From positions 1 through 64,000 of the IMG/VR virus record IMGVR_UViG_3300037722_000745: a stretch of DNA of 64,000 nucleotides; one strand, given 5' to 3'. The translations under genes and the position numbers were made by a program. A model generated the notes under the pieces. It saw only the letters and a program-made list of their open reading frames with translations, did no database searches and had not been told where the DNA came from. This DNA comes from a virus. Its lineage: Duplodnaviria > Caudoviricetes. This document shows positions 724-54,837 of this stretch, in pieces (the first letter of the stretch is position 1; the number at the start of each line of letters is the position of its first letter).

Positions 724-729
724 TACACC
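724..729 (-). promoter_or_regulatory. GGTGTA element (first of at least 14 copies found 9-12 nt upstream of start codons)
   Basis: Minus-strand copies (TACACC/TACACT/TACACG on +) at 724, 2881, 3187, 19452, 20974, 23025, 26534, 31989, 33925, 34205, 36538, 38100, 54830; plus-strand GGTGTA at 48503. Confidence 0.7.
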
Positions 730-879
730 ACGCGGCGACGTCTAGGACCTGAAAACGATCAGATTCGTCAGTGTGCAACACCCATACCAACACAACATGC
801 CCGTTAGTTCTCTTGTCCAGTGTCTAAATCATGGCTGACGCCGGACAGGTGTAGTAACTCCACTCACCAGGAGCAATGG

Positions 880-1713
880 ATGCGGCATTTAGGTATTGTT
901 CTTCTCTTCCTAACGTCTTGTGTCGGGGAGGCTCAAGAGGTTGCAACCCCAACAGCGGCGATTGTCCGGGAGGTTCCTTCTTCAGTGGAGCCGGTGCCAG
1001 TTGAGCCCACTCGAATGGTAGTGGTACCGGAGCGAGATCGTAAACGCCACACTGCAGTGCTGCTAGCGCGTGTGGCGATCAACGAAAACACTCGCCCCCT
1101 GCGCCCAGTCGAAGACAAGGGGACGGGAGGTCAGCCGACGGCTGATGCTAAGGCGATGATCCAAGAGCAAGTCGCTTTCGCTGAGTGGAAGAACGTCAGC
1201 TTGCGAGGAGCGATTGAATGGCAGTCCAAGTATGTGGCCGGAGTAGAAGAACCGAAAGAGGGTTCGCAACACGCTTGGACCTCGACGCTACCATCTCGAG
1301 GCGATGCCATGCCTAGAGGTTGGGTAGAGTGCACCAAAGAGATCCGAGCCGCCGGCACCGAGTGCGACGGGAATTGGGAAGTCTACGCTGACAACTGGGT
1401 TCGTTTCCGCACTTGGATGATCCAAGTCATTGTCCACGAGGGGCAAATCGAAGCTGAATGCGACGGAAACCCTATCACCTGGGGCTGCAGTGATGACGAC
1501 AAAATTGCCATCAACAGAGGTTTGTGTGTCATCGAGGGCTGCGGGGACCGTAACACATGGTGGGCATTCCCAGGTCATGGGTGTGATGAGCCAATGCGGG
1601 AGGTATTGGTAAGGGAGGGCTTGAAAAGGGAGTCCAGTTCCGTGTCCGCCCGAGAGATTATGAAGTCACTGAGAGAGAACTCCGACGACGACCAGTATGA
1701 CGACCCGTCCTGA
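880..1713 (+). CDS. putative lipoprotein, Cys-rich C-terminal part
   Basis: AGGAG 6 nt before ATG 880; hydrophobic N-terminus ending in lipobox-like LTSC. Confidence 0.65.
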   Translation: MRHLGIVLLFLTSCVGEAQEVATPTAAIVREVPSSVEPVPVEPTRMVVVPERDRKRHTAVLLARVAINENTRPLRPVEDKGTGGQPTADAKAMIQEQVAFAEWKNVSLRGAIEWQSKYVAGVEEPKEGSQHAWTSTLPSRGDAMPRGWVECTKEIRAAGTECDGNWEVYADNWVRFRTWMIQVIVHEGQIEAECDGNPITWGCSDDDKIAINRGLCVIEGCGDRNTWWAFPGHGCDEPMREVLVREGLKRESSSVSAREIMKSLRENSDDDQYDDPS

Positions 1714-2167
1714 GGATTCCTTTATTCCGCCACTACTGAGAGCGAGGTTAAGGATGACCGAACAAGATCTACTAGACTTTCGTCGCCGCTGCGTGGCGGC
1801 TCAGACAAACCATCGCACGATCGCGAAAGCAGAACACTACGCAGCTAGGTTGGAAGAGATTGCAGGGTCAATGCCCCTTGATCGAGGGATGCCAAAGAAT
1901 TCGACCCAACACTTGCTAGCTCTAACCGACAAGGCCCTGCGAGTCCTCTCTGGGGAAGAGACCGCAACCGCAAAGGCTGCTCCCAAAAAGGCGGCCAAAA
2001 AGGCGGCCAAAAAGAAATCGTCTAAGACAGCACATAAGCCTGTTGCCGAAACGACTGCTGCAGACAGCAGCGACAGTGAGCCTGCAGTGGATCCTGCAAA
2101 AGATCCTACCGGACCCGAAAGCAGCGACAGTGAGCACGCAGGGGAACCCGAGGACCCGACAGCCTAG
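1697..2167 (+). CDS. hypothetical protein with histone-H1-like KKAAKK tract
   Basis: AKAAPKKAAKKAAKKKSSK followed by an acidic tail with a duplicated SSDSE. Confidence 0.65.
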   Translation: MTTRPEDSFIPPLLRARLRMTEQDLLDFRRRCVAAQTNHRTIAKAEHYAARLEEIAGSMPLDRGMPKNSTQHLLALTDKALRVLSGEETATAKAAPKKAAKKAAKKKSSKTAHKPVAETTAADSSDSEPAVDPAKDPTGPESSDSEHAGEPEDPTA

Positions 2168-2871
2168 ATCAGCGTCGAGACCGCTTTAGTTGTAGCCTCA
2201 CGTAGATGGTCTAACGTTTGGTTGTTTTGAACCACGCTATCGAATTCGGAATCGGGAATTCCTCGCTGCTCCGATTCCGATTGGTGCCTTCCGTAGACAC
2301 CTTCTAGACCGGCGCCATCACGTAGGACCCGAATCACTTTTCCGCCGGCCTCTTTGATCATCTTGATCTCGTTGCGGAAGCGAACGTCTGGGATCACCAC
2401 ACCGACAAAGGAAGAGGGCTGACACAACAACCCTTCTTTCTGGGTGTAGTTGTAAGCTCCCGTCAGGATTTGATTTGCTGTGCGCACCCCAAGAGCCGCC
2501 CAGGTGTCCGGATAGCACTCGCGGCCCCATTCTGAACCTAACCGTTGAAGGGCCTCCCGAGGGGGCAAACAGGTGATACGAGTCCCGTTACAGTCGGGAC
2601 ACTTTTCGTCTAGCCCTACATGGTCAGCGCTGTAATGACCGTGACCGTGACATGATCGGCAAGGCCGTGGGTAGCGCTCATCTGGGATGTTCCTCGTCTC
2701 ACTGGGCCCCCACAGCTGATCGTCAGTGAACGCGTATACGTCGCGGACTATGCGCTTCAGAGGGTCGGCCAGCGCGACTTTGACAAAGTTGTGATCAGAA
2801 ACCAAGACGTCCGCCACACTATCTTTCCCTGAACTTGCGAAACCAGAGACTCCAATGATGACTTTGGGCAT
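2164..2871 (-). CDS. deoxynucleoside monophosphate kinase with inserted Zn finger
   Basis: N-terminal P-loop GVSGFASSGKD, ALADPLK, LQRLGSEWGR, IPDVRFRNE; CxxCxGxG...CxxCxG insert. Confidence 0.88.
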   Translation of the reverse strand: MPKVIIGVSGFASSGKDSVADVLVSDHNFVKVALADPLKRIVRDVYAFTDDQLWGPSETRNIPDERYPRPCRSCHGHGHYSADHVGLDEKCPDCNGTRITCLPPREALQRLGSEWGRECYPDTWAALGVRTANQILTGAYNYTQKEGLLCQPSSFVGVVIPDVRFRNEIKMIKEAGGKVIRVLRDGAGLEGVYGRHQSESEQRGIPDSEFDSVVQNNQTLDHLREATTKAVSTLI

Positions 2872-2902
2872 GCGGGCCCATACACCAGGCGCTGTGGCTT
2901 GA

Positions 2903-3175
2903 TCACTTCACGAGACCGCGCTGGCGAAGGTGATACAGCTCGTCCCCGAGCCATGTGATCTCTTGCAGACGGAACCACGGAGAGCGCGTTGGTTGCCCTA
3001 TCCCCTGTGTGATGCGCACACGGAAGTAGGGCTTCAGCCTCGGTCCATACGCGATCCCAGTCACCATCCCGGTCACCCCCTTTAGACCCTCTCGTGGGGC
3101 GTTTACCTCTACGATGTCACGGATGCTGATCCCCTTGACCTGGAGGTAAGGATCGCGGCGCTTACCCAGTCGCAT
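2903..3175 (-). CDS. small KOW/SH3-like hypothetical protein
   Basis: 90-aa ORF, IRDIVEV...GVTGMVTGI pattern; GGTGTA element 11 nt upstream. Confidence 0.55.
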   Translation of the reverse strand: MRLGKRRDPYLQVKGISIRDIVEVNAPREGLKGVTGMVTGIAYGPRLKPYFRVRITQGIGQPTRSPWFRLQEITWLGDELYHLRQRGLVK

Positions 3176-3194
3176 GGAGTTCTTGCTACACCGC

Positions 3195-4364
3195 TTACCG
3201 CATCGCCTCGGAGAGCACGGTGAACACCATACCCAGAGTGGCCCAGTCGGTCATCGGATCACGAAGCATATCCCCGACCGTGGTGACCTCTACGTAGGTC
3301 CGCTCGGAATCCTCTTCGACCCCATGGGCTTGACCGCGTAAGGTATGGAAGTAGTCCAGTTCAGCGGCCGTGATCTCTGCCGAGTAGGCATAAGCACAGA
3401 CAGAAGATAGCGTTCCGTAGAGTTGACGAGAAGACGCTGGTATCAAACGATCGGGATCGATATCGAATAATACCTCTTCATTCAACTCCTCGACCGCAGT
3501 GATTTTTGGGTCGGTCCCAGGTTTGGACGATCCGCCCGGCATCTCCCGGATGAAACCGTCTGACGTTCGACTAGGGCTCCTGAACTCCCGAACTAGGACA
3601 ACCTCAGTGCCTCTGAGCGTAGGAGCACGATGCCACAAGACCACCGAGGATATGTCAGGTCGGCCAAACACAAATTCGTTGCTTTTGACACGATCCTCCG
3701 ACGCAACATAGACCGACACCTTCAAGACCCAACAGAAGATGCGACGTGCTTTGGGCATGATGGATAGCCACAAGACCCGAGAGTCTAGAAGCTCGTTTCC
3801 TGCTCCCCTCTGCGCTTGATACCAACTCTGAAAGCTTTCTTGCTGCCAGATGTAAAGAGGTACGGTCGTCTCCCCTCCGGTACGAACGGCTCCCTCGCCA
3901 ACCATGTCAACAGCGGCTTCAAGGGCCTTGAGCAGTGTGGTGGCTTGCGGCACCTGAAGCTTATTGGCGTAGTACCGTTGGTAGGTGACCTTGGGGGCTG
4001 TGTCTGGCGCTCCTAACACCACCTTACCGGAGTATTTCCAGAGGCCCCACTCATCGTTCGTCGTGAATCCGGGCAGCCTCTCCAAGTCCCGCGGGATCCA
4101 GAACAAGATGCAGTCGGCTCGATTGAGAGCTGCCTCTTCCCATTCAACTTGCTCGTCGTAGTTCTCAGCCCACTTACCGTCGGCTGGCTCTGGTATATAC
4201 ACGTGACCGTCATACCCCAGCGACCTGAGGACCTGAAGTGCGGAAGGTCTCCAGCTCTCAACCTCAGACTCCCCTTTCTTGGGTTTGCGAGGGGTCGGTC
4301 CCGCGAGGAAGATGGACTTAGTTACTTTGGTTGGGAGAGGCTGACGTGCGTAGACTGGGATCAT
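3195..4364 (-). CDS. nucleoside 2-deoxyribosyltransferase-like domain fused to NUDIX hydrolase
   Basis: SIFLAGPT..SWR..EQVEWEEAALNRADCILFWIPRD..PGFTTNDEWG (NDT-like); C-terminal LVREFRSP..MPGGSS..TAVEELNEEV (NUDIX box variant). Confidence 0.85.
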   Translation of the reverse strand: MIPVYARQPLPTKVTKSIFLAGPTPRKPKKGESEVESWRPSALQVLRSLGYDGHVYIPEPADGKWAENYDEQVEWEEAALNRADCILFWIPRDLERLPGFTTNDEWGLWKYSGKVVLGAPDTAPKVTYQRYYANKLQVPQATTLLKALEAAVDMVGEGAVRTGGETTVPLYIWQQESFQSWYQAQRGAGNELLDSRVLWLSIMPKARRIFCWVLKVSVYVASEDRVKSNEFVFGRPDISSVVLWHRAPTLRGTEVVLVREFRSPSRTSDGFIREMPGGSSKPGTDPKITAVEELNEEVLFDIDPDRLIPASSRQLYGTLSSVCAYAYSAEITAAELDYFHTLRGQAHGVEEDSERTYVEVTTVGDMLRDPMTDWATLGMVFTVLSEAMR

Positions 4365-6096: not shown

Positions 6097-6180
6097 TTTC
6101 TTTTTAGATTTAGCCGGGCTCCGGTGTAATACTTTCAACTCATCCCGTACTCTTTACCACGAGAGGGATGGATACACCGC

Positions 6181-6849: not shown

Positions 6850-6852
6850 AGC

Positions 6853-9887: not shown

Positions 9888-9908
9888 CTCTTGTGTGCTT
9901 GCTACAGT

Positions 9909-19441: not shown

Positions 19442-19776
19442 TGGTGGCCTCTACACCGCGGATCAGCTCGGAATCGTAACTAACTCGGGGCGCCCGACCG
19501 GATCGATTCCGGCCCCAAGCAGCCGCGTTGCTGCCTGCACCGCGAAGCACTTGTCACTGGAGTGGATGCTCGAATAGAAGGTCAACAACGTCCGCGGTTC
19601 GACGACGCGGAAGCCGCCGGGTCGCACCAAGAAAGGGACGGCCCGGACGAAAAAGTCGATCGTGAGCCGAAAGGATTCCTCAGCGAAGCACCGCGAGCCC
19701 ATAGTTGATGCGATGCTCGGGCCACGTCATGAAGGAACCTTAATCCGTTCGATGGTGATGCGGTTGTGCACTCTAG

Positions 19777-20963: not shown

Positions 20964-20984
20964 TCAGCGGGGCTACACCAACCT

Positions 20985-23014: not shown

Positions 23015-23187
23015 GGGCCTAACATACACCACGTGAGGCCGTCGTAGTACTCGGCCACCCCTCGTGTCGCGTCCTCCACGCGCTCGTCGTAGCACACGCT
23101 GCAGTAGGGGTTCTCGGCGAACGAGCGCGGCGACTCCGCCATCGGTCGGCCACAGTATCGACAGCATTGGACGCGCTCGTAGATCAT
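23005..23187 (-). CDS. small Zn-finger protein
   Basis: CRYCG...YCSVC. Confidence 0.5.
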   Translation of the reverse strand: MIYERVQCCRYCGRPMAESPRSFAENPYCSVCYDERVEDATRGVAEYYDGLTWCMLGPWK

Positions 23188-26522: not shown

Positions 26523-26578
26523 AGTCCATAGACTACACCAGTCCGCACCATTCGTGTGGGCCTACCGTGAAAAGTCGA

Positions 26579-29121: not shown

Positions 29122-29194
29122 TCCGTGGTCCTTGGCGGTGTCGACACGCTCGTCATACTACACCGCCAAACGCCAAACCGAAATCCACTGGTTA

Positions 29195-30415
29195 CTACAC
29201 CGACAGGCCCTCCCGCGTCAGCGGACTCATAAACCGCCGGATCACTCGCGCAGCCGCATCCTTCTTGCGCTTCTTGGGTTTGGGGTTCTTGCGCTTGCCC
29301 TGAAGCCAACCCTCATTTTTGTTTGTGATCTTGAGCTTTAGCGGCTTGACCTTTGAGGCGGCGGTCTTCTTACCCTTACCCCCTTCACTGATGATCGTTC
29401 CCGTGAGGTCGGAGGCGCCCATGATTAAAAACTCCGCTTCGTCGAACGAATACGGGTAGGTCTCGGATCCAATCTCCGGCCGAACGAGCGAGCTTGCAAA
29501 GATGCGCTCGACAGGGATCTTGTACTCGACGACACGGCCAAAACGCTTAGCGATGTCCGGGTTCGCCGTGAATGACGACAGCTCGCGGGACTCTACGTTC
29601 ACAGGTGTCCCCACAGATGGTGGTACGTCGCCAACCCCCTGGCCCTGAAACCCACGGTAGAGAGTCAGCTCTTTGATGCCTTGGCTCCTGAAATACGCCT
29701 GTTGGAAGTCGTATAGCTTCTTTACGTACGTCTTCAATTTAGGGTTGCTCGCCGCCTTTTGTCGCGCTTTTGTGAGCGCCCCACCGGTCGCTCCGTCAAC
29801 CTCTTTGTCTTCCGGGGCAATGTGCCCGCTAACACCCAAGGACGACACAAGGCCCTGCATTTCCGAGCTGGAGTGATCCCAGTTCCCGTAGTTGTCGTAC
29901 TGGTAACTACCTGCCGAGGTCGTCCATTGACGAAAGAAACGTTCGTGCAACTTACTCTCGGACTTGTTCAAGACCTTCTTCTGGAAGTGGGACCCGATCT
30001 CGTGGCCACCCACATAGATAGCCTTCTCCGCCTCCGATAGCTTAGGGAATAACTTCCCGACAAGGTCCTCGTCAGAACCATAGGTGTTGAATTTGTTCTT
30101 CTTGGGCTCGAAGGCGTCGAGATCTTCTTTGGCCTCTTCAGTGATCCGGTCGAATGTCTTACCGTGCTGGGCAATGACCGCCTCAAGGTCCTCATTCGTC
30201 GACTTCAGAACACCCTTGAAGGTTGACTTTTCGCTGCTCGGCCTCCCGCTGTAGTCTCCTCCGCCTTCCTCAGAGAACTCTTGCTTCGGCTTGCGGACCC
30301 AATGTTTCTTAAGATCAGCCTTCGGGTGCTCCTGTAAATACGTTCGGAGCGCTTCCTCGGTGGAAAACTCCTTGGCGTACCGATCAACAACACGCCGAGC
30401 AACGAGGGAAGACAT
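29195..30415 (-). CDS. ADP-ribosyltransferase (R-S-E clade), probably virion-associated
   Basis: LTLYRG, LSSFT, FDEAEFL; N-terminal ARRVVDRY; probable start ATG 30415. Confidence 0.78.
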   Translation of the reverse strand: MSSLVARRVVDRYAKEFSTEEALRTYLQEHPKADLKKHWVRKPKQEFSEEGGGDYSGRPSSEKSTFKGVLKSTNEDLEAVIAQHGKTFDRITEEAKEDLDAFEPKKNKFNTYGSDEDLVGKLFPKLSEAEKAIYVGGHEIGSHFQKKVLNKSESKLHERFFRQWTTSAGSYQYDNYGNWDHSSSEMQGLVSSLGVSGHIAPEDKEVDGATGGALTKARQKAASNPKLKTYVKKLYDFQQAYFRSQGIKELTLYRGFQGQGVGDVPPSVGTPVNVESRELSSFTANPDIAKRFGRVVEYKIPVERIFASSLVRPEIGSETYPYSFDEAEFLIMGASDLTGTIISEGGKGKKTAASKVKPLKLKITNKNEGWLQGKRKNPKPKKRKKDAAARVIRRFMSPLTREGLSV

Positions 30416-31978: not shown

Positions 31979-32077
31979 TGGGTATTCCTACACTCCCGTT
32001 AGGTACAACAGATCAAAAACATCGAATGAACTTCGATGTTGTGCTGACCCTACCCCCGAGAGAAAAATGGACTAGGT

Positions 32078-33912: not shown

Positions 33913-33933
33913 GCGGAGGATCAGTACACCGGT

Positions 33934-34194: not shown

Positions 34195-34360
34195 TAACAG
34201 CCTCTACACGAATGCCTTCTGCTTCTAGCAGTACTACAAGTGCTTTCACGTTGGTAGTCAAAACTGTGAAGGCATTCATACCCGGCTCGATGAGGATCAA
34301 CGGGTCTTTGACCTGCAAAGACGTGGTCGAGTATGCGCGTATGGAGTAGTAATGAGGCAT
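34124..34360 (-). CDS. small hypothetical protein
   Basis: TGATG coupling with the upstream gene at 34360. Confidence 0.45.
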   Translation of the reverse strand: MPHYYSIRAYSTTSLQVKDPLILIEPGMNAFTVLTTNVKALVVLLEAEGIRVEAVNALDGETSHVGSGAAERPEIPTL

Positions 34361-36528: not shown

Positions 36529-36542
36529 GACGGTATCTACAC

Positions 36543-38090
36543 CTAGCCGATCGCTAGGTCCCGATCCGGCCCTCCTGGGTCCGCTGCAAAGCGAGCCCGC
36601 ACCCCATCGTCGACAAGAGCATCGAATCCGACCCAGTCCAGGGTCTCACGAATTTCATCGGTCATCGTTCGGACAATCCGCGGCTTGCGGTTCAGCTCTG
36701 AGACCAAAAGGGCTTCATCGAGTGCTTCTTTACCCGCTACGAAACTTCGGACCATTGCCGCTTTGATGGCTTGTTCAATCTCCCGACCTACCATATCTTT
36801 CGCTGCCTCAGCCAATCGGTACAGGTCGAAATCGGAGTGGTTCTGTCGCCGCTTCAAGAGATGAATCTTGATGATGTCGATCCGATCTACTGTCGAAGGC
36901 AAGTCAAAGAACCACCTCTCATCCATTCGGTTGGTAAACTCTACCGGAAGAGTCTTCAGAGAGTTGGCTGTTAGTGCCAAGCACACTGGGACTTTAGTCT
37001 CTTGGTGCCAAGTAGACAGCGCACCGATCATTCGAGACGTTGTGCCTGCATCCGTGTAGGACGAAGAATGCCCACCGGAGAGGGACTTCTCGGCTTCGTC
37101 GCACCAGACTACGCAGGGCGCCACCGACTCAATGATCTGTATCGCCTGGTAGGTGTTGCTCTCGGAGTCCCCCACGCCAGATTGTCGGAGCTTACCCAGG
37201 TCCAGCTGGAGCAAAGGTAACCCCCAGGCGTTAGCTAGGCACTTAATCGACAACGACTTACCCGACCCCCAGATCCCTACGGCTAGCACCCCCTTCGGTG
37301 GTTCCAACCCAAACTCACGACCCTCAGGGGACCACGCCACAGCGGTCTCTGCAGCCCATGCTTTGAACCGCCCAACCCCGCCGACTTGATCGAAGTCGTA
37401 CGCAGATGCATCTACATAGTCGATCAAGTTTGTCTTCTTCAGCTGCCGAAAGCGGTACTCCGAAAGCATCTTCTCATCCGCGTTGCCTCGAGTCTTCTTG
37501 TACGTCTGGATCAGAGCTGCTTGAATTTCAAACCCAGTGAGACCGGAAAACAAAGTCGACGTCTCAGACGGGACTTCGATCTTAAGAGCCTCACAGGTAT
37601 TAGAGACGATCTCCTGAATCTCCGAGGAGGACAAACCGGAGTCGTAAACGACCTCGGTGTACCTCGCCAGCTTCCTAGGAATCAGACACTGGTTGCCCAC
37701 GCAAATTAGCACCTTGACCGTGTTCACGTCCTGGTGCCCCTGATGGATGATATTCAGGATGCGACGTTGAATATGAGGATCTTTGAGCCATCGCTCCGGG
37801 TCGGTCAGGATGTAAAACTCTTGGCTCTCCGGCGTTGGCTCTTTGTAGATCTCTATCAGCGCATCATGGATGTTGATCGTCTTCTTGTTCTCCGCGTGGG
37901 CCTTCGTAACCCAGTCCTGAGTTAGATTCGCGAGTGGAAGTAACCCGAGAGCGGCGTTGTAGACCTTGACGTGGTCTACCCTGCTCCGCATCGCCTCTTG
38001 AAGCTGCACGAGGAACCGATCCTCTTCCTCCGTAACGAAGTAGATCAGACGGGTCACCGACTTCAAATGGAGTACTAGTTCGTCATGCAT
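36543..38090 (-). CDS. AAA+ ATPase, Ycf46-like
   Basis: FDQVGG, PKGVLAVGIWGSGKS, VVWCDEAEK, TAN..LPVEF..RMDERWFFDLP, GREIEQ. Confidence 0.88.
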   Translation of the reverse strand: MHDELVLHLKSVTRLIYFVTEEEDRFLVQLQEAMRSRVDHVKVYNAALGLLPLANLTQDWVTKAHAENKKTINIHDALIEIYKEPTPESQEFYILTDPERWLKDPHIQRRILNIIHQGHQDVNTVKVLICVGNQCLIPRKLARYTEVVYDSGLSSSEIQEIVSNTCEALKIEVPSETSTLFSGLTGFEIQAALIQTYKKTRGNADEKMLSEYRFRQLKKTNLIDYVDASAYDFDQVGGVGRFKAWAAETAVAWSPEGREFGLEPPKGVLAVGIWGSGKSLSIKCLANAWGLPLLQLDLGKLRQSGVGDSESNTYQAIQIIESVAPCVVWCDEAEKSLSGGHSSSYTDAGTTSRMIGALSTWHQETKVPVCLALTANSLKTLPVEFTNRMDERWFFDLPSTVDRIDIIKIHLLKRRQNHSDFDLYRLAEAAKDMVGREIEQAIKAAMVRSFVAGKEALDEALLVSELNRKPRIVRTMTDEIRETLDWVGFDALVDDGVRARFAADPGGPDRDLAIG

Positions 38091-38119
38091 GAGCTTCTGT
38101 ACACCTTCACAGGGCCAAA

Positions 38120-38724: not shown

Positions 38725-39378
38725 CTACACCGAATCTCCTCCAACTCGGATCTTCTGCCCAGGTTTAACGATCTTGATGTCAGCGGTATCCGTGGTCGGA
38801 ACGGGCCTGTCCCAATTATTGGACGCAGTAGGTGCCGGCTTTCCGGACCCAATCATCCGTCCCTGTTGTAGGGGGGTGTTGCTGAAAGCGAGGTCAGGGC
38901 CCAACCTACCTGGGGTAGGGGCCTTGACCTCGGATTCCAGTTCGGAAGTTGAAGGCGGCGGTGGAAGCTCAGATCCTTCCACCGCTGACTCGTTTAGGTC
39001 GGATGGTGACGAGGACTCTTGGGGGATTTCCGGCTCTCTCACCTTCAGATCGGGAGTCGGATGAGGAGAAGGTGCTGGCTGAGAAGTTAGAGCTAGTGGA
39101 TCTACCCAACCGGAATTGATCGATGGTTCAAGGCACACAAAACCTTGTGCTGCAAGTTTTGGGTATCTAGGATCCTCCGGCTTGAGACGGGGCACCTCAG
39201 AAAAAAGACGCTCATACCACGTGCTCACACGCGAATCGAAAAGAGACGTGCCGAACTTCGATCTCACGCACTCCGGTTGGATACAATGCTTGCAGCACTC
39301 CTCGGTGAATTGCTGTAACGGTGCCCCCTGAACGTTGCACTCACCGTAAAGATCTCGTCGTTTCTGTGTCACAGTCAA
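38725..39378 (-). CDS. hypothetical protein, Cys-rich N-terminus
   Basis: 217-aa ORF coupled to the polymerase gene. Confidence 0.65.
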   Translation of the reverse strand: MTVTQKRRDLYGECNVQGAPLQQFTEECCKHCIQPECVRSKFGTSLFDSRVSTWYERLFSEVPRLKPEDPRYPKLAAQGFVCLEPSINSGWVDPLALTSQPAPSPHPTPDLKVREPEIPQESSSPSDLNESAVEGSELPPPPSTSELESEVKAPTPGRLGPDLAFSNTPLQQGRMIGSGKPAPTASNNWDRPVPTTDTADIKIVKPGQKIRVGGDSV

Positions 39379-42239: not shown

Positions 42240-42615
42240 CTGAAGGGGGCTCCAATACAGCCAACACGTACACCTCCGAACGCCATAGCTTGATCACTTC
42301 CCCCGCTAAGGCCCCAGGTGAGACCCCAGCAGGCTCAAAGCACCACGGCATCTTCGAAGACAACACCAAGCAACGCCGTTTCACGTGGAACGGGCATGAC
42401 TTCTCGTGCTCACACCGTTGGGACGGAAGTTTCCGCAGCATTCCTTCGGGCGGTGGTCCGAGCTGATCTACCAAAAGTCGTGTCCAGCCGTGCAGCGCGT
42501 GGTCCATGACTTCTTTGGTGACCTCAGGTATATCCATCACCCCCTGTAGAGGTCGCCACTCCTCTTCCCAAACGCCATCCTCGTTGTAGATGAGATACAG
42601 CTCGATGCGGCCCAT
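42220..42615 (-). CDS. hypothetical protein
   Basis: Cys-containing ORF between polymerase and primase ZnF. Confidence 0.6.
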   Translation of the reverse strand: MGRIELYLIYNEDGVWEEEWRPLQGVMDIPEVTKEVMDHALHGWTRLLVDQLGPPPEGMLRKLPSQRCEHEKSCPFHVKRRCLVLSSKMPWCFEPAGVSPGALAGEVIKLWRSEVYVLAVLEPPSDERRRP

Positions 42616-44717: not shown

Positions 44718-45593
44718 TTACCAGGGCCCCTTACGCTTCGGATGGTATTTGGAGCCCGATGACCCGGGCGGCAGCAGATCGTCGGAGTTTGATTGGGATG
44801 GCCTCGAAGTTGATTGGGATGACTTAGACTGGTCAAACAAATTGCTTTTCGGTGGGTCGACTCCCATCCCAATTGCATTGTCGTTATCCTCGACTTCCTC
44901 CTGTACCTCTCTGCGCAATCGGTTGACTCTCTCTCTAGCTTCCTCAACCCCCCCACCCAGATCGACTATGTCATAGTTCTCTTGGATGTAGCCCCAAGCA
45001 CCAGGAGTGTAGGCTTCATGCCCTGGGCCAAAGAACTCAACATCCTCCGCAATCCAGGTGGGTTTGCCTGCGCCCATTCGAATCGCCATCGTTTCATGAA
45101 GCACATCCCCAGCAGCTCTGTTCCGGTGGAGAACCCCGAGCCGTATGATGACTAAGCTCGGCGGTAGAAGAAGATCGTTGAGGTTGTTGTAAGTGGCGAT
45201 CGTCTCCCGGTTTTCCTTGGATCTCTTCGTGTAGGCAAAGTCCCCAAGCCATACCCGCACCAGCTCCTGGTCGTCCGTGGTCCGAAACGTGAAACCCTTG
45301 GAGTATTCCCACTTCACCGAAAGGACCCAACGCAAGTGCCGGCAAACCATCTCCCAGGTCCCCCTCAGGAACAGGTTCTCTTGGGTGGCATCCCGGTCTT
45401 CAGTGTAGAGAGGACTCCGAACGTGCTTCACGCCTGAAATGACGGGACCCAGAAATGCATGAAGCTGCTTGCGTTTGAGACAAATGCACGGAATCGGAAT
45501 CAGGTCCTCGCCGTCGGTCTCATAGCGCCAGTGTTTTCCTTTGCACTGTGGGCATATGGTCTCCTCAGGCACGATTGGTAGATACACCGGCAT
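44718..45593 (-). CDS. possible DnaC/DnaI-like helicase loader
   Basis: CPQC...CIC Zn motif then degenerate P-loop fold (LLLPPSLVIIRLG, KPTWI); next to DnaB. Confidence 0.5.
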   Translation of the reverse strand: MPVYLPIVPEETICPQCKGKHWRYETDGEDLIPIPCICLKRKQLHAFLGPVISGVKHVRSPLYTEDRDATQENLFLRGTWEMVCRHLRWVLSVKWEYSKGFTFRTTDDQELVRVWLGDFAYTKRSKENRETIATYNNLNDLLLPPSLVIIRLGVLHRNRAAGDVLHETMAIRMGAGKPTWIAEDVEFFGPGHEAYTPGAWGYIQENYDIVDLGGGVEEARERVNRLRREVQEEVEDNDNAIGMGVDPPKSNLFDQSKSSQSTSRPSQSNSDDLLPPGSSGSKYHPKRKGPW

Positions 45594-48429
45594 CCGAGTC
45601 TCGCAGACTCTTCATCAGCTCGTAGGAGAAGCTACCCTCACTCTCGAAATTCAAAGCTCCGACCGCAGCTTCCCCAAGCACTTTGTCGATCAGGTCTTTC
45701 TTGCTTTGAAGGATTTGGAGTGTGTAGTGATCGATCGTCTTTTTTGCTCGACCCGGACGCTCCGCTACTAGGTGGATCGCTACGACGTGTTGGTGAGGAG
45801 AGCCGATACGAATCGGTCGCCCGAGAAGCTGGACGTAGTTCCCCCACGACCAAGGAGCATTGTAGAAGATCATCGCCGCAGCGGCTTGTAGGTTGATCGA
45901 CTCCGAACCCGCATCTGAGATGAAGATGACCCGCACATCGGATTCAGGATCCTGAAACTCCAGCATGGCCCTCTGCCGAGCTGGATTGGTCTTGGTGTCG
46001 ACTACTTTGCCTGTGATCGCCGTGCTCTCCACCCCAGCTTTCTTGCACAACTCCTGAAGACGGGGGATGAGGGACGCGAATCGTGTGTACACAATCACCT
46101 TCTCCCCATCGAACTCCCCGGTGATCAGATCCAACATGGCTTCCTCTTTCGAGGACAAGGATTTCACGTTGTCCGCCTCACCCAACAACTCGAGCCCGAT
46201 AGTGTCCCCCTCTTCGAAGCGAAGTAAGCTCAGAGAATCAACCGTTTGTTGGCAGTAGATGAGCGCAGTCAGCGTTTTGGTCTCTTCGTAGTCCCGCACC
46301 TCTCCGTCCCCCAAAGCGAGCACGCCTGACAGTGCCTCCTCGTACTTCGTGTTCTCCGCTTTAGATAACGTGACCCGAACGTCGCGCGTGAGAAGCTTGG
46401 GAAGCTCGTCCGAAATCTCATGCTTCGGCCGTCCGAGGAAGAACGGATCAATGCGCATCCGGAACAGCTCCAGGTTCTTGTACCCGATGATGATCGGAAT
46501 TTTCCTTCGACCTCCTACAGGTTGCCACTTGACCTCGCAGAACAGGTCGAGGAACTTCGTCTTCGTCGTGAAGACTCTTGGGTAGATGCACTTGTAGATG
46601 GCGTAACCCTCGATCAAGTTGTTCTTGAGCAAGGTAGCTGTGAGCCCGTAACAACGATTTGCATGGCTGGCTAGCTCTGAACACACCTGCCACGTCTTTG
46701 TCGACGGGTTCTTGAACGCGGTGCAGTTAGAAACTAGGGCCCCTCCAGCTATGTAGTTATGGTTACCCTCGACCTCCAAGTCATAGACGTAGTCAAGATG
46801 CTCCCGCACCTTGGGGGCACGCTTCCATGGAGTTTTAGCCAGCACCACATCCCGTACCAAACCAACCGTAGGGTTACGATCCAAACTCTCCAACAGGAGT
46901 GGTTCTTTACCTGGAAACTTGTGCTCCACCCCAGGTAAAGAGCCAGGCAACAGCTCTAGGAACCTGTCGGCCGCCTCTGCGTCCAAGTACAACACCCAAT
47001 GACGACCTGACTTGCTAATCTGCGCCTGAACCCCCCACCGCCACCGAAGCCAACCCGCTAACAATTCGTTCTCGCCGTAGGTGAATCCTTGCGTGTTTAA
47101 AATAATACGACGGCGAACCACCCCTTCTTTGGTTGTGTGCGTCTGCAACGATCCGTCATCCCCATACCAGATCGCAAGACCTAACGGGCCAACGCGGCTC
47201 AACCATTCTACAGAGGGGTGCTTACGGCCTTCTCGATGCGTAGTCAGTGTTGAACACAAATGTGGGTTGGCTCGTAGCCTGAACCGGCAAATGGGAGAAC
47301 CCCCGTACCCGCTAGGGGTTGTGCTAATCTCAGAGGTGCCAAGCGAGGCTAACAAGCCCTTCTTGAAATCCAGGTATCTTCGCTGTGCTTGCCCATGTAC
47401 AAAAGACACCCCCCACAAACTACGCTTGGGGTGGGACACACTAGCATCCCCAAGCAAACCCCCCAGAATAATCTGGAGTTGATCATCAGAAGGTATTGTG
47501 TCCGTAAAGGTAGCTGTCTCGGAGCCCTTCCTAAGACGCCCTGCTTCCGTTGGTTTGCCGTCGCATCTGTAGAATTTATGATTTCTGGTTACGATCACGC
47601 TGTTGGCATACCGAAACTCAAGTTTCACCAACCCCTTCGTGCGCAATGGGTTACGGACCCAACGGATTACCCGGCGTGGTTCCATGGAGTTGGTCGCCCA
47701 GTTCCATGACAACACGGATACAGGTTCTCGCCCGCATACGATCTTGCCTATCAACCGCTCAGAGCCATCAGCTAAGCGTATTGGAGTGTGGTACTCGAAA
47801 CATTCGTCGTACACGACAGTGAGGCCGTCGATCTTCTGCATGAGGCCGTTCAACAACCCGGGGCTCATCGGCTTCTTCATGTCCGGCTGCCCGTTCTTCT
47901 TGAGCGGACGGGTGGCTCCCTGATTCCAGTCGCGGACCAAGGGAGCATACCCCATGACCATCACCGCTTTCGGGTCGTCCGGGCCCGTTGGATGATTCAA
48001 AAAAGCGTCGTAGGTTTCCCGACGCTCATCCGGACCTCCGTTTGCCAAGTAGACTTGAATACCTGTGGCGAACTTGTCGATCTCTGCCGCCCACTGACGC
48101 AGGGCGCTCTTGGGGGTGATCACGACCACTTTGTTCGTCGGTTCTTTCTGCCAGGTGTAGCAAAAAGCTGCAATGCAGGTGGGCGTCTTGCCCGTGCCAG
48201 TGGCGTCCCCGAGCACCATCCTCTTCATCGACATCAGATGGAAGACCGCCTGGACTTGATAGTACCGGAGCTTGAACGGCTGGACTTTGCCGTCGATGCC
48301 CACGATCTCAGATCGCAGCATCGAGATGGGCTTGAGCGCTACCGTCTTGCTCTCCCGGACCTTTTTGAGAAGCTCGTAGACCTTCCTGTGCTTCTCTACC
48401 GGATCTTCTTTAGGTGTTTTCGCGGCCAT
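45565..48429 (-). CDS. SNF2-family helicase with intein
   Basis: LGDATGTGKT, YDE|C, LTATLLKN, VIVYTRF, GSESINLQ, WSWGNYVQLLGR. Confidence 0.93.
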   Translation of the reverse strand: MAAKTPKEDPVEKHRKVYELLKKVRESKTVALKPISMLRSEIVGIDGKVQPFKLRYYQVQAVFHLMSMKRMVLGDATGTGKTPTCIAAFCYTWQKEPTNKVVVITPKSALRQWAAEIDKFATGIQVYLANGGPDERRETYDAFLNHPTGPDDPKAVMVMGYAPLVRDWNQGATRPLKKNGQPDMKKPMSPGLLNGLMQKIDGLTVVYDECFEYHTPIRLADGSERLIGKIVCGREPVSVLSWNWATNSMEPRRVIRWVRNPLRTKGLVKLEFRYANSVIVTRNHKFYRCDGKPTEAGRLRKGSETATFTDTIPSDDQLQIILGGLLGDASVSHPKRSLWGVSFVHGQAQRRYLDFKKGLLASLGTSEISTTPSGYGGSPICRFRLRANPHLCSTLTTHREGRKHPSVEWLSRVGPLGLAIWYGDDGSLQTHTTKEGVVRRRIILNTQGFTYGENELLAGWLRWRWGVQAQISKSGRHWVLYLDAEAADRFLELLPGSLPGVEHKFPGKEPLLLESLDRNPTVGLVRDVVLAKTPWKRAPKVREHLDYVYDLEVEGNHNYIAGGALVSNCTAFKNPSTKTWQVCSELASHANRCYGLTATLLKNNLIEGYAIYKCIYPRVFTTKTKFLDLFCEVKWQPVGGRRKIPIIIGYKNLELFRMRIDPFFLGRPKHEISDELPKLLTRDVRVTLSKAENTKYEEALSGVLALGDGEVRDYEETKTLTALIYCQQTVDSLSLLRFEEGDTIGLELLGEADNVKSLSSKEEAMLDLITGEFDGEKVIVYTRFASLIPRLQELCKKAGVESTAITGKVVDTKTNPARQRAMLEFQDPESDVRVIFISDAGSESINLQAAAAMIFYNAPWSWGNYVQLLGRPIRIGSPHQHVVAIHLVAERPGRAKKTIDHYTLQILQSKKDLIDKVLGEAAVGALNFESEGSFSYELMKSLRDSDAGVSTNRA
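46726..47802 (-). mobile_element. intein with LAGLIDADG homing endonuclease (359 aa)
   Basis: Starts CFEYHTPI after YDE; ends VYDLEVEGNHNYIAGGALVSN before Cys+1; internal GGLLGDAS and IWYGDDG. Confidence 0.93.
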
Positions 48430-48517
48430 CTTGCGTGGCCAGCTACACCAACGGGAAGCTCACACTGAGCTTCCCTACGTCCCACGGCGGATGCGGCCGT
48501 TCGGTGTAGCCCCCTGC

Positions 48518-50963: not shown

Positions 50964-51193
50964 CGAAGCCTAAGCAGGCACTGAGTCCCGCTGCGGCGGG
51001 GCCTCGCTATGGTCGCCGCTGATCGTTCGCGAACGGTCGGACTGTGCGTATGACCTCGGACCTTCCCGACAGATCGCGGAGGCGCGCAAGGCGCCGGTAC
51101 CGAGAAAAGACAGGGCCCGCCTAGCCTCTTTCAACGCAGTTTCAAAGTCCTTCTTTACCTTGGAACCACCTCTCGACTATCCCAAACGGAAGC

Positions 51194-52303: not shown

Positions 52304-52310
52304 TCTCCCG

Positions 52311-53462
52311 TTACCCCTTCATTTGTGCTGCTGCGGCTTCCAGCACCGCTACGGCGTCCTTTGGAAGGTCCTCAAACTTCTCCGTCATCCAAGTCAGGAT
52401 GACCTTGCCCCTCCGAAGCCGAGTTAGGTTCTTCTTCGCTCCGTAGCTATAGTCTCCGAAAATTGCCCTCGGAAGCACCTTTCCGCCCAATCGGGCCCCA
52501 AGATACTTCTGCGTATCCCGCTCACTCAAGTAGTACTGCCTGCCGTTCAGGATCAAGGCGACCTTGTAGTAGTCACCGTGGTATGCGCCATCCCAGAAGT
52601 TGTGACGAGCCTTTGGCTCCGGGTAGTACCCAGGCTTCTCGTTGAACGTCCGCTCCTGGTTGATCTCCACAACCTGTTTCCTACCGGCTACCGCGGGGGA
52701 GTCGCCCGTGACCTCACCGCTGTTGACAAGCCAGTGCTTAATCGAGGTCGGGGCTCCCGTCGGAAGTCTGGTCCCGAGTCTCCAACCCTTGGCGTCGAGC
52801 ACCTTCGAATTGAATCGCCCCGGGAACTTCATCTCCTTAAGCGCCTTGATGACGTTGCGGTATAGCCAGGAGGGATTTGTGCCCTCGTCCTTACTGATCG
52901 TGTGCTCAACTGAACGAAGCGTCCAAACGTCCTCGTTATAGCTACCGCCGATAAAGTGGTCGTGCCGTTGGTGATGGTGCGCTGCTACAAAGACGTGCTG
53001 CCGCTCAGTGCGACCGTATGCCACGAAGTAACGATCACTCAAGCTAGATTCGTCGCCCATCCAGCCCTTACCCCGCTGGTACGGCGTGACGAACTTCCAC
53101 TCCACACCGCCCGGGATCCCTGCCTTGGCTTCAGCTTGCTCGAAAGTGACTTCCTTCTTCGGAGGCGGTGTCCACTGGGTCGTATAGCCTGGATCCTTCG
53201 TAGTCGTACTGGGGCTCGTACTAGGCCCTGAAGGCCGTCGATCGTACGTGGGACGAGCCTTCCCTGTCAGGATGTCGTAGGCCAGGCCGACCGCCTTGAA
53301 GTCCTCTTCCTTCCCCCCTCGGTCAGGATGCATCTGGAGAGCCTTCGCTCGGTAGGCACTCTTGATGTCTCCAGGGCTTGGCGTACTCGTGGGAGGAAAG
53401 CCAAGCACACTCTTGGCCTCTTCCAGAGACATCGCCATCTTTAGGAATTTATGACGATCCAT
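52311..53462 (-). CDS. J-domain protein
   Basis: AKSVLG..IKSAYRAKALQMHPDRGGKEEDFKAVGLAYDIL. Confidence 0.85.
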   Translation of the reverse strand: MDRHKFLKMAMSLEEAKSVLGFPPTSTPSPGDIKSAYRAKALQMHPDRGGKEEDFKAVGLAYDILTGKARPTYDRRPSGPSTSPSTTTKDPGYTTQWTPPPKKEVTFEQAEAKAGIPGGVEWKFVTPYQRGKGWMGDESSLSDRYFVAYGRTERQHVFVAAHHHQRHDHFIGGSYNEDVWTLRSVEHTISKDEGTNPSWLYRNVIKALKEMKFPGRFNSKVLDAKGWRLGTRLPTGAPTSIKHWLVNSGEVTGDSPAVAGRKQVVEINQERTFNEKPGYYPEPKARHNFWDGAYHGDYYKVALILNGRQYYLSERDTQKYLGARLGGKVLPRAIFGDYSYGAKKNLTRLRRGKVILTWMTEKFEDLPKDAVAVLEAAAAQMKG

Positions 53463-53507
53463 TTCACTCTAGGGCAGGACACAAGTTGTTCCGTACACGC
53501 CGGGCGC

Positions 53508-53927
53508 TCAGTAGAGCACTGGCTTTCGCCGATTGATAATCTGCACACTCTCGCTTTTGACCCCAAGCTCAGACCTGACTAGAGCGAGCGGAACTTCCGG
53601 ATCATAGTCCCCACAAGAAAATACGTCCATGCTGAAGAATTCTTGCAGAGGCCAACAGTGGATGGCGATGTGGCTTTTGTTGATTACGCAAAGCCCAGTA
53701 ATCCCACCCTCATCTTCAAAAACACCCGTCTCCTGAGAACGCCTAAGCGTGTCTATATCGATGGGGACTTCGATGAAATCCGGACCAATCAAGATCGTCA
53801 TGTTCAGCGCTTCCACAATTCCATGGAAGAGCGCCCTGAGACGATCCGTCCCGAACACTTTGGGGTCGTGCACGAAGGCGTCAATCGTGACATGAACCCC
53901 AGCGCTTTCAATAATTCGACCTCTCAT
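53508..53927 (-). CDS. S-adenosylmethionine decarboxylase-like proenzyme, paralogue 2
   Basis: GITGLCVINKSHIAIHCWP..MDVFSC; ATGA overlap with paralogue 1. Confidence 0.82.
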   Translation of the reverse strand: MRGRIIESAGVHVTIDAFVHDPKVFGTDRLRALFHGIVEALNMTILIGPDFIEVPIDIDTLRRSQETGVFEDEGGITGLCVINKSHIAIHCWPLQEFFSMDVFSCGDYDPEVPLALVRSELGVKSESVQIINRRKPVLY

Positions 53928-54394
53928 CCTAGAACTCGCTCCACAACCCGAGAAGCTGCTGGACGGAGAGAGCTGGCTGGCGTTGCAAGATCTCGAGTGT
54001 GCTTCCTGATCCCCATGCAAGGGCCGCCCTCTAACCCACGCCCGCGTTCAACGTAGACCAGTTCAGAGACTGTAGCTTGGAGGCCCGATCGCAGAACGTG
54101 GTGGGCTTGATGCGGGTCCCCTTCCCCGCACGTGTAGAAATCAACCGCAGCGTACCCGTGTTCAGGCCAGGTGTGGATCGATAGATGTGACTCCTCGATC
54201 ACCACAACACCGCTCACTCCTTGTGGATCGAACGGCTGGAACTTCGAGAACACGATGTTGGTCCTAGCCGCCACCGCAGCCTGCTTCATCAGCGCTTGTA
54301 TTTGAAGCACATTGTTGAGGGCCTCGAACGGACACCCCATGTACTCAATGAGCAGATGCTTACCGTGAGTGTCCACGTCGAGTCTCCCGGGCAA
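53924..54394 (-). CDS. speD: S-adenosylmethionine decarboxylase proenzyme
   Basis: GKHLL, FDPQGVSGVVVIEESHLSIHTWPEHGYAAVDFYTCG. Confidence 0.92.
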   Translation of the reverse strand: MPGRLDVDTHGKHLLIEYMGCPFEALNNVLQIQALMKQAAVAARTNIVFSKFQPFDPQGVSGVVVIEESHLSIHTWPEHGYAAVDFYTCGEGDPHQAHHVLRSGLQATVSELVYVERGRGLEGGPCMGIRKHTRDLATPASSLRPAASRVVERVLG

Positions 54395-54441
54395 CCCAAC
54401 TGCCGCCCCCTAGCCGAGCTGATAAATCGTTCTGCGAGGGC

Positions 54442-54819
54442 CTAGGTTCGGTCGTAGACCTCGACCGGGGGTTTAGGGTCCGGGAGGCCCAGAGCCACCC
54501 GCTCGGCCGCTGAAAGCTTTTTGAGGGCCCGCTCGCGGACTTCCTCGGTCTTCGCATCGACATGCTCGTCTAGCTTAGCGGGCTCCCCATCGAGAATGTA
54601 CGCGTAGACGGTGTTGCTGCCCGGACGAGTCTGATGGACGATAGCTTTCGCGCTAACAACTTTCCCCGAGTCCCCAGGCCCCCTACCGCCTAGATTCTGG
54701 GCCACTAACTGAGCTTTCCCCTCGGTCGAACAGGCCCCCACGCGCTCCACAAGCTGACCATCCATGTTGGTCGAGTAAACCAACCATACCGTCTTCACGT
54801 TCAGAGAAGCTGTCTCCAT
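54442..54819 (-). CDS. hypothetical protein
   Basis: 125-aa ORF ending RALKKLSAAERVALGL; GGTGTA 10 nt upstream. Confidence 0.65.
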   Translation of the reverse strand: METASLNVKTVWLVYSTNMDGQLVERVGACSTEGKAQLVAQNLGGRGPGDSGKVVSAKAIVHQTRPGSNTVYAYILDGEPAKLDEHVDAKTEEVRERALKKLSAAERVALGLPDPKPPVEVYDRT

Positions 54820-54837
54820 GACTCCTAGTTACACCAA

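What the first reader, a model, noticed from the sequence alone, without database searches (positions are those of the whole stretch)
724..54835. GGTGTA element at a fixed 9-12 nt from at least 14 start codons, mostly without a Shine-Dalgarno
Seen: spacing to the start is 10 (713), 9 (2871), 11 (3175), 10 (19441), 10 (20963), 10 (23014), 11 (26522), 10 (31978, AGTGTA), 12 (33912), 10 (34194, CGTGTA), 9 (36528), 9 (38090), 9 (48518), 10 (54819), plus TCTGTA 9 nt before 15051. I saw no shared -35 box. Inference: a single-box phage promoter giving leaderless or near-leaderless mRNAs via a phage sigma/RNAP factor. The spacing is too long for GGTG to act as a Shine-Dalgarno.
Basis: partly seen in the sequence, partly recalled or inferred. 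Interest (0 to 1): 0.72.

Follow-up and report, generated by a model that had tools for sequence, protein, structure and literature searches.

The report
Single-box leaderless promoter of huge phages
A seven-base signal (C/T)GGTGTA that sits 9-11 bases before about one gene in eight of this 323-kb phage, and of its ~400-kb relatives, is most likely a very compact promoter that starts the messenger RNA right at the start codon, so that these genes need no ribosome-binding site.

Summary
All 13 exact GGTGTA sites and both one-mismatch variants lie at the stated spacings; the TCTGTA site before 15051 is not supported.

The window is the first 64 kb of a 323-kb viral contig, a Cas12j-bearing huge phage. 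Of 165 GGTGTA copies in the contig, 44 lie 9-11 nt before a start codon that opens a long frame. Control words give 1-3 per spacing.

The peak recurs in two fully fetched relatives (406 kb and 398 kb) and is kept at orthologous genes.

The promoter reading rests on several indirect lines:
- The TA falls at -12/-11 if the start codon is +1.
- Position -1 is a pyrimidine in 78-83% of motif genes, locked to the start codon in every spacing class.
- Shine-Dalgarno-like words are depleted and ATG is enriched.
- The motif is three times commoner before the first gene after a strand switch.
- It shares TGTA with a two-box element, TTTAGA-N16-TGTAATAC.
- In 12 of 12 related loci an invariant GGTGTA precedes a conserved ~300-nt structured non-coding RNA.

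No phage RNA polymerase was found. A conserved 318-aa protein with a sigma-domain-2 fold is the candidate reader.

The scan noted the same motif in at least 15 other genomes. I found no publication describing it.

The parts
724..729 (-). GGTGTA, 10 nt before ATG 713 (146-aa frame 273-713)
2881..2886 (-). GGTGTA, 9 nt before ATG 2871 (235 aa)
3187..3192 (-). GGTGTA, 11 nt before ATG 3175 (90 aa); the upstream gene's stop codon lies 2 nt before the motif
19452..19457 (-). GGTGTA, 10 nt before ATG 19441 (422 aa)
20974..20979 (-). GGTGTA, 10 nt before GTG 20963 (129 aa)
23025..23030 (-). GGTGTA, 10 nt before ATG 23014 (169 aa; earlier in-frame starts exist)
26534..26539 (-). GGTGTA, 11 nt before ATG 26522 (274 aa)
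31989..31994 (-). variant AGTGTA, 10 nt before GTG 31978 (249 aa); membership uncertain because one-mismatch variants show no clear peak
33925..33930 (-). GGTGTA, 12 nt before ATG 33912 (183 aa)
34205..34210 (-). variant CGTGTA, 10 nt before ATG 34194 (86 aa); membership uncertain
36538..36543 (-). GGTGTA, 9 nt before ATG 36528 (191 aa)
38100..38105 (-). GGTGTA, 9 nt before ATG 38090 (515-aa AAA ATPase); the motif is kept before the orthologue in 8 of 11 related contigs, at 9-29 nt
45583..45588 (-).
48503..48508 (+). GGTGTA, 9 nt before ATG 48518 (433 aa)
54830..54835 (-). GGTGTA, 10 nt before ATG 54819 (125 aa)
38726..38731 (-). GGTGTA, 19 nt before an ATG, with AGGAGG in between: a likely short-leader version of the same promoter
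42269..42274 (-). GGTGTA, 29 nt before the family-A DNA polymerase start (42239): likely a leadered copy
48444..48449 (-). GGTGTA, 14 nt before the SNF2-type helicase start (48429)
29159..29201 (-). two GGTGTA copies (29159-29164 and 29196-29201), 37 and 74 nt before the ClpX-like gene start (29121)
6103..6132 (+). two-box promoter-like element, TTTAGA-N16-(GG)TGTAATAC; here the GGTGTA box and the TGTAATAC box are the same bases
6173..6178 (-). GGTGTA facing the element at 6103-6132, 34 nt before TTG 6138; the two predicted leaders would be complementary
61887..61916 (+). second two-box element, TTAAGA-N16-TGTAATAC, 22 nt before ATG 61939, with AGAGGGGG in the leader

Best explanation
(C/T)GGTGTA is a compact promoter of the -10 type with no -35 box. 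It is used by a family of roughly 400-kb Cas12j-bearing huge phages for one class of genes: replication, nucleotide-metabolism and many small genes, and almost no gene in the 60-180 kb block of large genes. RNA polymerase binds the box and starts about 10 nt downstream, that is, on the A or G of the start codon. The mRNA is therefore leaderless, or has 1-3 nt of leader, and is translated without a Shine-Dalgarno sequence. A minority of copies lie further upstream and give leadered mRNAs with an SD, or non-coding RNAs. The box is most likely read by host core RNA polymerase carrying a phage-encoded, strongly diverged sigma factor, the 318-aa family at contig 255887-256843. Shown: the motif, its spacing, its conservation and the sequence signatures. 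Inferred: that it is a promoter, where transcription starts, and which factor reads it.
For: (1) Spacing peak: 44 of 165 copies lie at gap 9-11 before long frames, and controls are flat. The same peak occurs in relatives: 12/64/47/14 at gaps 9-12 in G003 and 16/26/6/6 in G004. It is also seen in three more distant contigs.
(2) Register: at the modal gap of 10 the TA falls at -12/-11 from the first base of the start codon. This is the geometry of sigma70-type -10 boxes (established knowledge) and of the Deinococcus leaderless '-10 motif' (PMC12340547).
(3) Start-site signature: pyrimidine at -1 in 78-83% of motif genes against 45-55% of other genes (p 0.002, 6.5e-8, 1.8e-5). It stays locked to the start codon in the 9, 10, 11 and 12 gap classes.
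(4) SD-like words are depleted, 7-18% against 39-48%. ATG is used by 87% of motif genes against 64% of others, p 1.6e-11.
(5) First genes after a strand switch carry the motif in 77 of 267 cases, against 117 of 1043 co-directional genes (odds ratio 3.2, p 1.6e-11). Divergent pairs share spacers as short as 20 nt.
(6) Orthologues keep it: G000 against G003 gives the table [[9,2],[6,103]], p 2e-8, at a median 48% protein identity.
(7) In 12 of 12 loci an invariant GGTGTA, back to back with a TACACC that serves the divergent gene, directly precedes a conserved ~300-nt structured non-coding element. 29 of its 42 predicted pairs show compensatory changes, and there is no start codon at 9-11 nt.
(8) It shares TGTA with 13 two-box elements, TTTAGA-N16-TGTAATAC, that sit at variable distance from starts with SD-bearing leaders.
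(9) Extra copies occur 14-90 nt upstream of genes, 27 seen against 7.4 expected, and several are followed by an SD.
(10) A copy lies 16 nt before the phage tmRNA gene.
(11) The motif is class-specific: 1 of 88 genes between 60 and 180 kb carries it.
(12) Reader: no RNA polymerase families were found in this contig, nor in the complete relative G004. For the 318-aa family, 14 of 27 members hit Pfam Sigma70_r2 (best E 1.1e-5). Its model (pLDDT 83) matches sigma domain 2 of many sigma factors, including T4 gp55, at Z 5.5-7.4.
(13) Precedent: phiEco32 middle and late promoters are AATGTA, read by the phage sigma gp36 (PMC12276001).
Against: The -7 T that defines sigma70-type -10 boxes is not conserved, so the register is not certain. 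If TGTA is numbered as in phiEco32 (-12 to -9), the start would lie 1-3 nt before the start codon. Depletion of antisense copies inside genes is only suggestive: Z -3.9, but second of 60 permuted words in a null with a wide spread. The copies before RNA genes are few. The structural matches of the sigma-like protein are in the range where chance helical matches occur (note), Foldseek gave nothing significant, and nothing links that protein to this motif beyond co-occurrence. The host is unknown, so its ability to translate leaderless mRNA is assumed.
Confidence: 0.72

Rival explanations
1. GGUGUA acts on the RNA as a translation-initiation element that replaces the Shine-Dalgarno sequence. It would sit in a 5' UTR at a fixed distance from the start codon and recruit the ribosome or a phage factor.
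For: The spacing to the start codon is fixed and SD words are depleted in the same genes. Many copies lie inside co-directional gene arrays directly after the upstream stop codon, where a translation signal would be useful.
Against: Only GGUG could pair with the 16S tail, and 12 nt from the start codon is too far (established SD geometry). The perfect anti-SD complement GGTGAT shows no peak. The pyrimidine at -1, the enrichment at the first gene after a strand switch, the invariant copy before a non-coding structured RNA in 12 of 12 loci, and copies at 14-90 nt followed by a normal SD have no place in this model.
Confidence: 0.1
2. The motif is an RNA processing signal. A phage or host endoribonuclease cuts polycistronic transcripts about 10 nt downstream and so creates leaderless 5' ends and the 5' end of the non-coding RNA.
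For: It fits the fixed distance, the position after stop codons in gene arrays and the copy in front of a structured RNA. According to earlier notes of this scan, the phage carries many RNA-handling elements.
Against: Back-to-back divergent pairs, and spacers of 20 nt between divergent starts, would need promoters buried in the opposite genes. The enrichment at the first gene after a strand switch and the TGTA shared with a two-box element at a fixed 16 nt from a -35-like box point to DNA recognition by RNA polymerase.
Confidence: 0.07
3. The motif is the operator half-site of a phage DNA-binding regulator, one of its helix-turn-helix proteins, that switches a gene class on or off. The real promoters would lie elsewhere.
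For: The phage encodes several HTH or sigma-region-4-like proteins. The motif is class-specific and conserved.
Against: The site is a single oriented 6-7-mer with no dyad or repeat. It is locked to the start codon within 2 nt and no other promoter-like box is shared upstream. The pyrimidine at -1 is unexplained.
Confidence: 0.08

Closest known systems
Middle and late promoters of coliphage phiEco32, read by the phage sigma gp36 (PMC12276001)
   Same: A single short box near -10, AATGTA, which shares TGTA. It is read by a small, diverged phage sigma on host core polymerase and has no strong -35 consensus. The gp36 complex (9m7y_F) appears among the weak Foldseek matches of the sigma-like protein.
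   Different: GG stands in place of AA. The box is tied to start codons, which is not described for phiEco32. The candidate sigma is 318 aa with an insertion of about 115 aa and has no detectable sequence similarity to gp36. No gp79-like partner was looked for.
Leaderless-gene '-10 motif' TANNNT directly upstream of ORFs in Deinococcus-Thermus (PMC12340547). By my own knowledge, also in mycobacteria and in Thermus phage phiYS40 (Sevostyanova 2007, listed in that paper's references; not readable here).
   Same: A -10-type box at a fixed short distance from the start codon, no SD, a -35 box that is dispensable, and TA in the same register.
   Different: The conserved bases lie upstream of the TA (GGTG) and not downstream of it: there is no T at -7. 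The signal belongs to a phage gene class and not to the host's housekeeping promoters.
T4 late promoters, TATAAATA, read by gp55 (established knowledge; structure 7d7d_F among the fold matches)
   Same: A single-box promoter near -10, read by a sigma-domain-2-like phage protein on host core polymerase and used for one temporal class.
   Different: The sequence is unrelated. T4 late mRNAs have leaders with an SD. The dependence on gp33 and the sliding clamp was not examined here.
Start-associated sequences of cluster K mycobacteriophages (my own knowledge: Pope et al. 2011; not checked here)
   Same: A short conserved word at a fixed small distance upstream of many start codons of one phage group.
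   Different: Those sequences contain the SD and are thought to act in translation. GGTGTA excludes an SD and shows promoter signatures.

Membership tests
sigma70-type -10 element (TATAAT / TAnnnT) | T at -12 and A at -11, about 6-7 nt of discriminator before the start site | tested here: inconclusive
   The TA lies at -12/-11 from the start codon at the modal gap of 10, but the transcription start site is not mapped.
sigma70-type -10 element (TATAAT / TAnnnT) | conserved T at -7 | tested here: not met
   No T preference four bases after the TA in G000; only weak preferences in G003 and G004.
sigma70-type two-box promoter | -35 box 17 +/- 1 nt upstream of the -10 box | tested here: not met
   No information above 0.2 bits from -45 to -3 of the motif in 47-138 aligned sites per genome. 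A separate class, TTTAGA-N16-TGTAATAC, does have such a box.
extended -10 promoter (TGnTATAAT) | TG separated by one base from the TA of the hexamer | tested here: not met
   In GGTGTA the TG abuts the TA directly (seen in the sequence).
phiEco32 gp36-type promoter | AATGTA box near -11.5 | tested here: inconclusive
   TGTA is shared and AA is replaced by GG. AATGTA itself shows no positional peak in these genomes. Where the box is centred depends on the unmapped start site.
sigma70-family sigma factor (the 318-aa protein) | region 2 / domain 2 fold | tested here: inconclusive
   14 of 27 family members hit Pfam Sigma70_r2, best E 1.1e-5, and the query itself scores 15.5 bits, below the cut-off of 24. 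About half of the top 50 structural matches are sigma domain 2, Z 5.5-7.4, rmsd 2.4-3.5 A over 70-90 residues. Foldseek gave nothing significant.
sigma70-family sigma factor (the 318-aa protein) | binding to core RNA polymerase and promoter-specific initiation | not testable with these tools
   Needs biochemistry; the host is unknown.
Shine-Dalgarno sequence | complementarity to the 16S 3' tail at about 5-9 nt from the start codon | tested here: not met
   Only GGUG could pair, and it lies 11-13 nt from the start codon. GGTGAT, GGAGGT and AGGTGA show no peak.
leaderless mRNA | primary 5' end at the start codon | not testable with these tools
Indirect support only: pyrimidine at -1, no SD, ATG preference.

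The most novel reading that the evidence does not exclude
A whole family of uncultivated ~400-kb phages runs an eighth to a quarter of its genes as leaderless mRNAs. They would start from a -35-independent YGGTGTA promoter read by a new kind of phage sigma, whose domain 2 is split by an insertion of about 115 aa. The sigma gene itself would lie behind a GGTGTA-driven ~300-nt structured RNA that controls its own synthesis. Phage gene expression would then be insulated from host promoter and Shine-Dalgarno rules.
Probability: 0.3. Interest if true: 0.8.

Novelty: new variant of a known kind. Interest (0 to 1): 0.62.

Why it matters
- It gives a simple, testable rule for transcription units, true start codons and gene classes in huge phages that cannot be cultured. 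Their annotation otherwise rests on gene finders that expect a Shine-Dalgarno sequence.
- It predicts a minimal 7-bp promoter and a matching sigma-like protein that can be tested in vitro and could serve as an orthogonal expression pair.
- It extends leaderless expression, so far described mainly in Actinobacteria, Deinococcus-Thermus, archaea and a few phages, to a large group of environmental phages.

Tried and rejected
- Close relatives among deposited phages: none by megablast. The DNA polymerase reaches only 32% identity to an uncultured 485-kb phage.
- Second query for relatives: the 422-aa protein gave no relatives in viral contigs.
- Host: the ClpX-like gene found only one weak cellular match. 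The host stays unknown.
- Phage RNA polymerases: PF00623 was not found in this contig. PF00562 and PF00940 were not found here or in three relatives. The PF00940 control rang in no control genome, so that answer is weak.
- Phage ribosome or initiation factors (S21, IF3, IF1): none found.
- Profile of the sigma-like family against solved structures, by sequence: nothing. Foldseek against PDB: nothing significant.
- Terminators just upstream of the motif: no enrichment of hairpins, and a T-run only in G004.
- Antisense depletion of the motif inside genes: Z -3.9, but within the spread of permuted control words. Not used as evidence.
- Whole-genome over-representation of GGTGTA under a 4th-order Markov model: none, 165 seen against 157.5 expected. 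The signal is positional, not compositional.
- Literature: no paper links GGTGTA to a phage promoter or treats Biggiephage promoters. Sevostyanova 2007 could not be read.
- Rfam on the region upstream of the sigma-like gene: no match.
- Complex prediction was not used, because the host polymerase is unknown.


Full report
**What the window is.** The window is the first 64 kb of a single 323,174-bp viral contig with 56% G+C. The contig is classed as linear and about 68% complete. It encodes a family-A DNA polymerase, a DnaB-like helicase, an SNF2-type helicase interrupted by an intein with a LAGLIDADG endonuclease, a ClpX-like ATPase, ThyX and AAA proteins. It has no near relative among deposited phages. 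Eleven viral contigs of up to 416 kb share its AAA protein at 53-70% identity. Earlier notes of this scan identify it as a Cas12j-bearing huge phage.

- The window has 39 copies against 17 +/- 3.9 in shuffles.
- The signal is positional, not compositional. Genome-wide the word is no commoner than a 4th-order Markov model predicts, 165 against 157.5.
- Of the 165 copies, 15, 21 and 8 lie exactly 9, 10 and 11 nt before an ATG or GTG that opens a frame of at least 50 codons. The reverse complement, permuted words and every one-mismatch variant give about 0-6, mostly 1-3, at any spacing.
- GGTGTA is the most enriched hexamer upstream of starts, 34 seen against 1.8 expected.
- Allowing gaps of 8-13 gives 55 candidate sites. 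They cluster at 0-55, 186-229 and 277-322 kb.
- Only 1 of 88 genes between 60 and 180 kb, the block of long genes, carries the motif.
- The logo is Y-GGTGTA-(G/A), with nothing else conserved from -45 onward and no -35 box.
- The TCTGTA site before 15051 is an in-frame internal ATG of a 784-aa frame, and I do not count it.

**It is a family trait.** I fetched two relatives in full.
- G003 (406 kb, 55% G+C) has 12/64/47/14 copies at gaps 9/10/11/12. G004 (398 kb, terminal repeats, complete, 48% G+C) has 16/26/6/6. The control word is flat in both.
- Orthologous genes keep the motif. For G000 against G003, 9 of 11 motif genes have it in both genomes, against 6 of 109 other genes (p 2e-8, at a median 48% protein identity). 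The pairs with G004 behave likewise.
- Before the AAA gene the motif is present in 8 of 11 relatives, at 9 to 29 nt from the aligned start.

**Promoter or translation signal?** Several independent sequence signatures favour a promoter that starts at the start codon.
1. Register. At the modal gap of 10 the TA falls at -12/-11 from the first base of the start codon. This is the register of sigma70-type -10 boxes and of the Deinococcus leaderless '-10 motif' (PMC12340547).
2. Start-site signature. The base before the start codon is a pyrimidine in 78-83% of motif genes against 45-55% of other genes in all three genomes. The bias stays on the start codon whether the gap is 9, 10, 11 or 12. This is the usual pyrimidine(-1)/purine(+1) preference of RNA polymerase.
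3. Translation features. SD-like words are depleted, 7-18% against 39-48%. ATG is favoured, 87% against 64%, as expected for leaderless mRNAs.
4. Position in transcription units. Genes that follow a strand switch, and so need their own promoter, carry the motif three times as often as co-directional genes: 77 of 267 against 117 of 1043, p 1.6e-11. Divergent gene pairs with only 20 nt between their start codons carry one copy on each strand.
5. Leadered copies. GGTGTA is also enriched 14-90 nt upstream of genes that lack it at 9-13 nt, 27 seen against 7.4 expected. Several of these copies are followed by a normal SD, for example 38726-38731.
6. Not an SD. GGTGAT, the perfect complement of the 16S tail, shows no peak at all.

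**A copy before a non-coding RNA.** This is the strongest single item.
- Upstream of a conserved 318-aa gene lies an unusually long non-coding gap of about 740 nt in G000 and 570-800 nt in the relatives.
- At its far end, in 12 of 12 loci from diverged phages, a TACACC serves the divergent neighbour gene at the usual 10 nt. It is followed 5-27 nt later by an invariant GGTGTA pointing the other way.
- That copy is not followed by a start codon. It is followed by a conserved element of about 300 nt with a clear secondary structure: 42 predicted pairs, 29 of them with compensatory changes, including a long-range closing helix.
- Rfam has no match for the element.
- A translation signal has no role there. 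A promoter does.

**A second promoter class shares the core.** G000 has 13 copies of TGTAATAC, most of them preceded at exactly 16 nt by a TTTAGA-like box. In the window they are at 6103-6132 and 61887-61916. They lie at variable distances from start codons, usually with an SD in the leader. This is an ordinary two-box architecture, and its downstream box shares TGTA with GGTGTA. At 6123 the two boxes are literally the same bases, GGTGTAATAC. In the single-box class, the GG plays the part that upstream extensions play in extended -10 promoters.

**Who reads it.**
- No multisubunit or T7-type RNA polymerase family was found in this contig, nor in the complete relative G004. The PF00940 control rang nowhere, so that answer is weak.
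- Helix-turn-helix proteins with sigma-region-4-like domains exist.
- The best candidate is the 318-aa protein at 255887-256843 (-). It has more than 40 homologues, all in such phage contigs.
- 14 of 27 homologues individually hit Pfam Sigma70_r2 at their N terminus, best E 1.1e-5.
- Its model (pLDDT 83) matches sigma domain 2 of SigB, SigI, RpoE, SigK, sigma-28, sigma-32 and T4 gp55 at Z 5.5-7.4, with rmsd 2.4-3.5 A over about 80 residues. The match leaves out an insertion at roughly residues 68-185.
- These Z values are middling, and Foldseek gave nothing significant. I therefore call it a candidate only.
- Its own start codon never has GGTGTA at 9-11 nt.

**Closest known.** phiEco32 middle and late promoters are a single AATGTA box read by the phage sigma gp36, with T-12, G-11, T-10, A-9 (PMC12276001). 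If GGTGTA is numbered that way, transcription would start 1-3 nt before the start codon and not on it. The spacing distribution and the pyrimidine at -1 fit the TA = -12/-11 register better, but only 5'-end mapping can decide. T4 late promoters with gp55 and the leaderless '-10 motif' of Deinococcus-Thermus are the other near analogues. The motif fails the defining features of a canonical -10 box (no T at -7), of an extended -10 box, and of a Shine-Dalgarno sequence.

**Limits.** No RNA data could be consulted. The host is unknown. My gene calls are a simple codon-bias caller, so the numbers for non-motif genes are diluted by wrong starts. The antisense-depletion test was not decisive.

**Earlier notes and literature.** The scan had already noted this motif in at least 15 other genomes, and one follow-up reached the same reading. 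I re-derived the evidence here and added the non-coding-RNA case, the two-box class and the orthologue test. I found no paper that describes the motif.

**Verdict.** This is a real, conserved, previously unpublished promoter class. It is a new variant of known kinds: single-box phage promoters and leaderless-gene promoters.

Noticed in passing
L001:2060-2405 (-), = contig 257238-257583, outside the window; alignment A3: A conserved ~300-nt structured non-coding element lies directly downstream of an invariant GGTGTA, in the long gap upstream of the sigma-like gene, in 12 of 12 phage loci. 29 of 42 predicted pairs show compensatory changes. No Rfam match. It is either a free RNA or a long regulatory leader of the sigma-like gene.
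   Followed up: partly
window 6103-6132 (+) and 61887-61916 (+); 11 more copies in the contig, mostly 260-320 kb: A second, two-box promoter-like class, TTTAGA-N16-TGTAATAC. It sits at variable distance from starts with SD-bearing leaders. The upstream box was not seen in relatives G003 and G004.
   Followed up: partly
contig 255887-256843 (-), L001:709-1665: A family of 318-aa proteins found only in huge-phage contigs. They have a sigma-domain-2-like fold split by an insertion of about 115 aa, and a strongly conserved FRNYL...NH.ANFCRT..RRHKERP helix that resembles region 2.3-2.4 of ECF sigma factors (the resemblance is from my own knowledge).
   Followed up: partly
window 6123-6178: Two GGTGTA boxes face each other 50 nt apart, so the two predicted 5' leaders would be complementary over about 30 nt.
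   Followed up: no
whole contig: GAGCTG/CAGCTC is the most over-represented hexamer under a 4th-order Markov model, 410 seen against 254.5 expected. Unexplained.
   Followed up: no
contig 224455-247748 (-): 43 tRNA and tmRNA genes, all on the minus strand. The phage tmRNA (244897-245295) has GGTGTA 16 nt upstream of its predicted 5' end.
   Followed up: partly
contig 215929 and 220480 (-): Two GGTGTA sites share a nearly identical upstream stretch of about 45 nt, as if a promoter module had been duplicated in front of two different genes.
   Followed up: no
window 45565-48429 (-): An SNF2-type helicase gene interrupted by an intein with a LAGLIDADG endonuclease domain.
   Followed up: no
G004, sites aligned: In the 48% G+C relative the motif is often extended to TTTYGGTGTAATAT. 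A T-run of four or more lies just upstream in 26% of sites, against 7% of other genes.
   Followed up: partly
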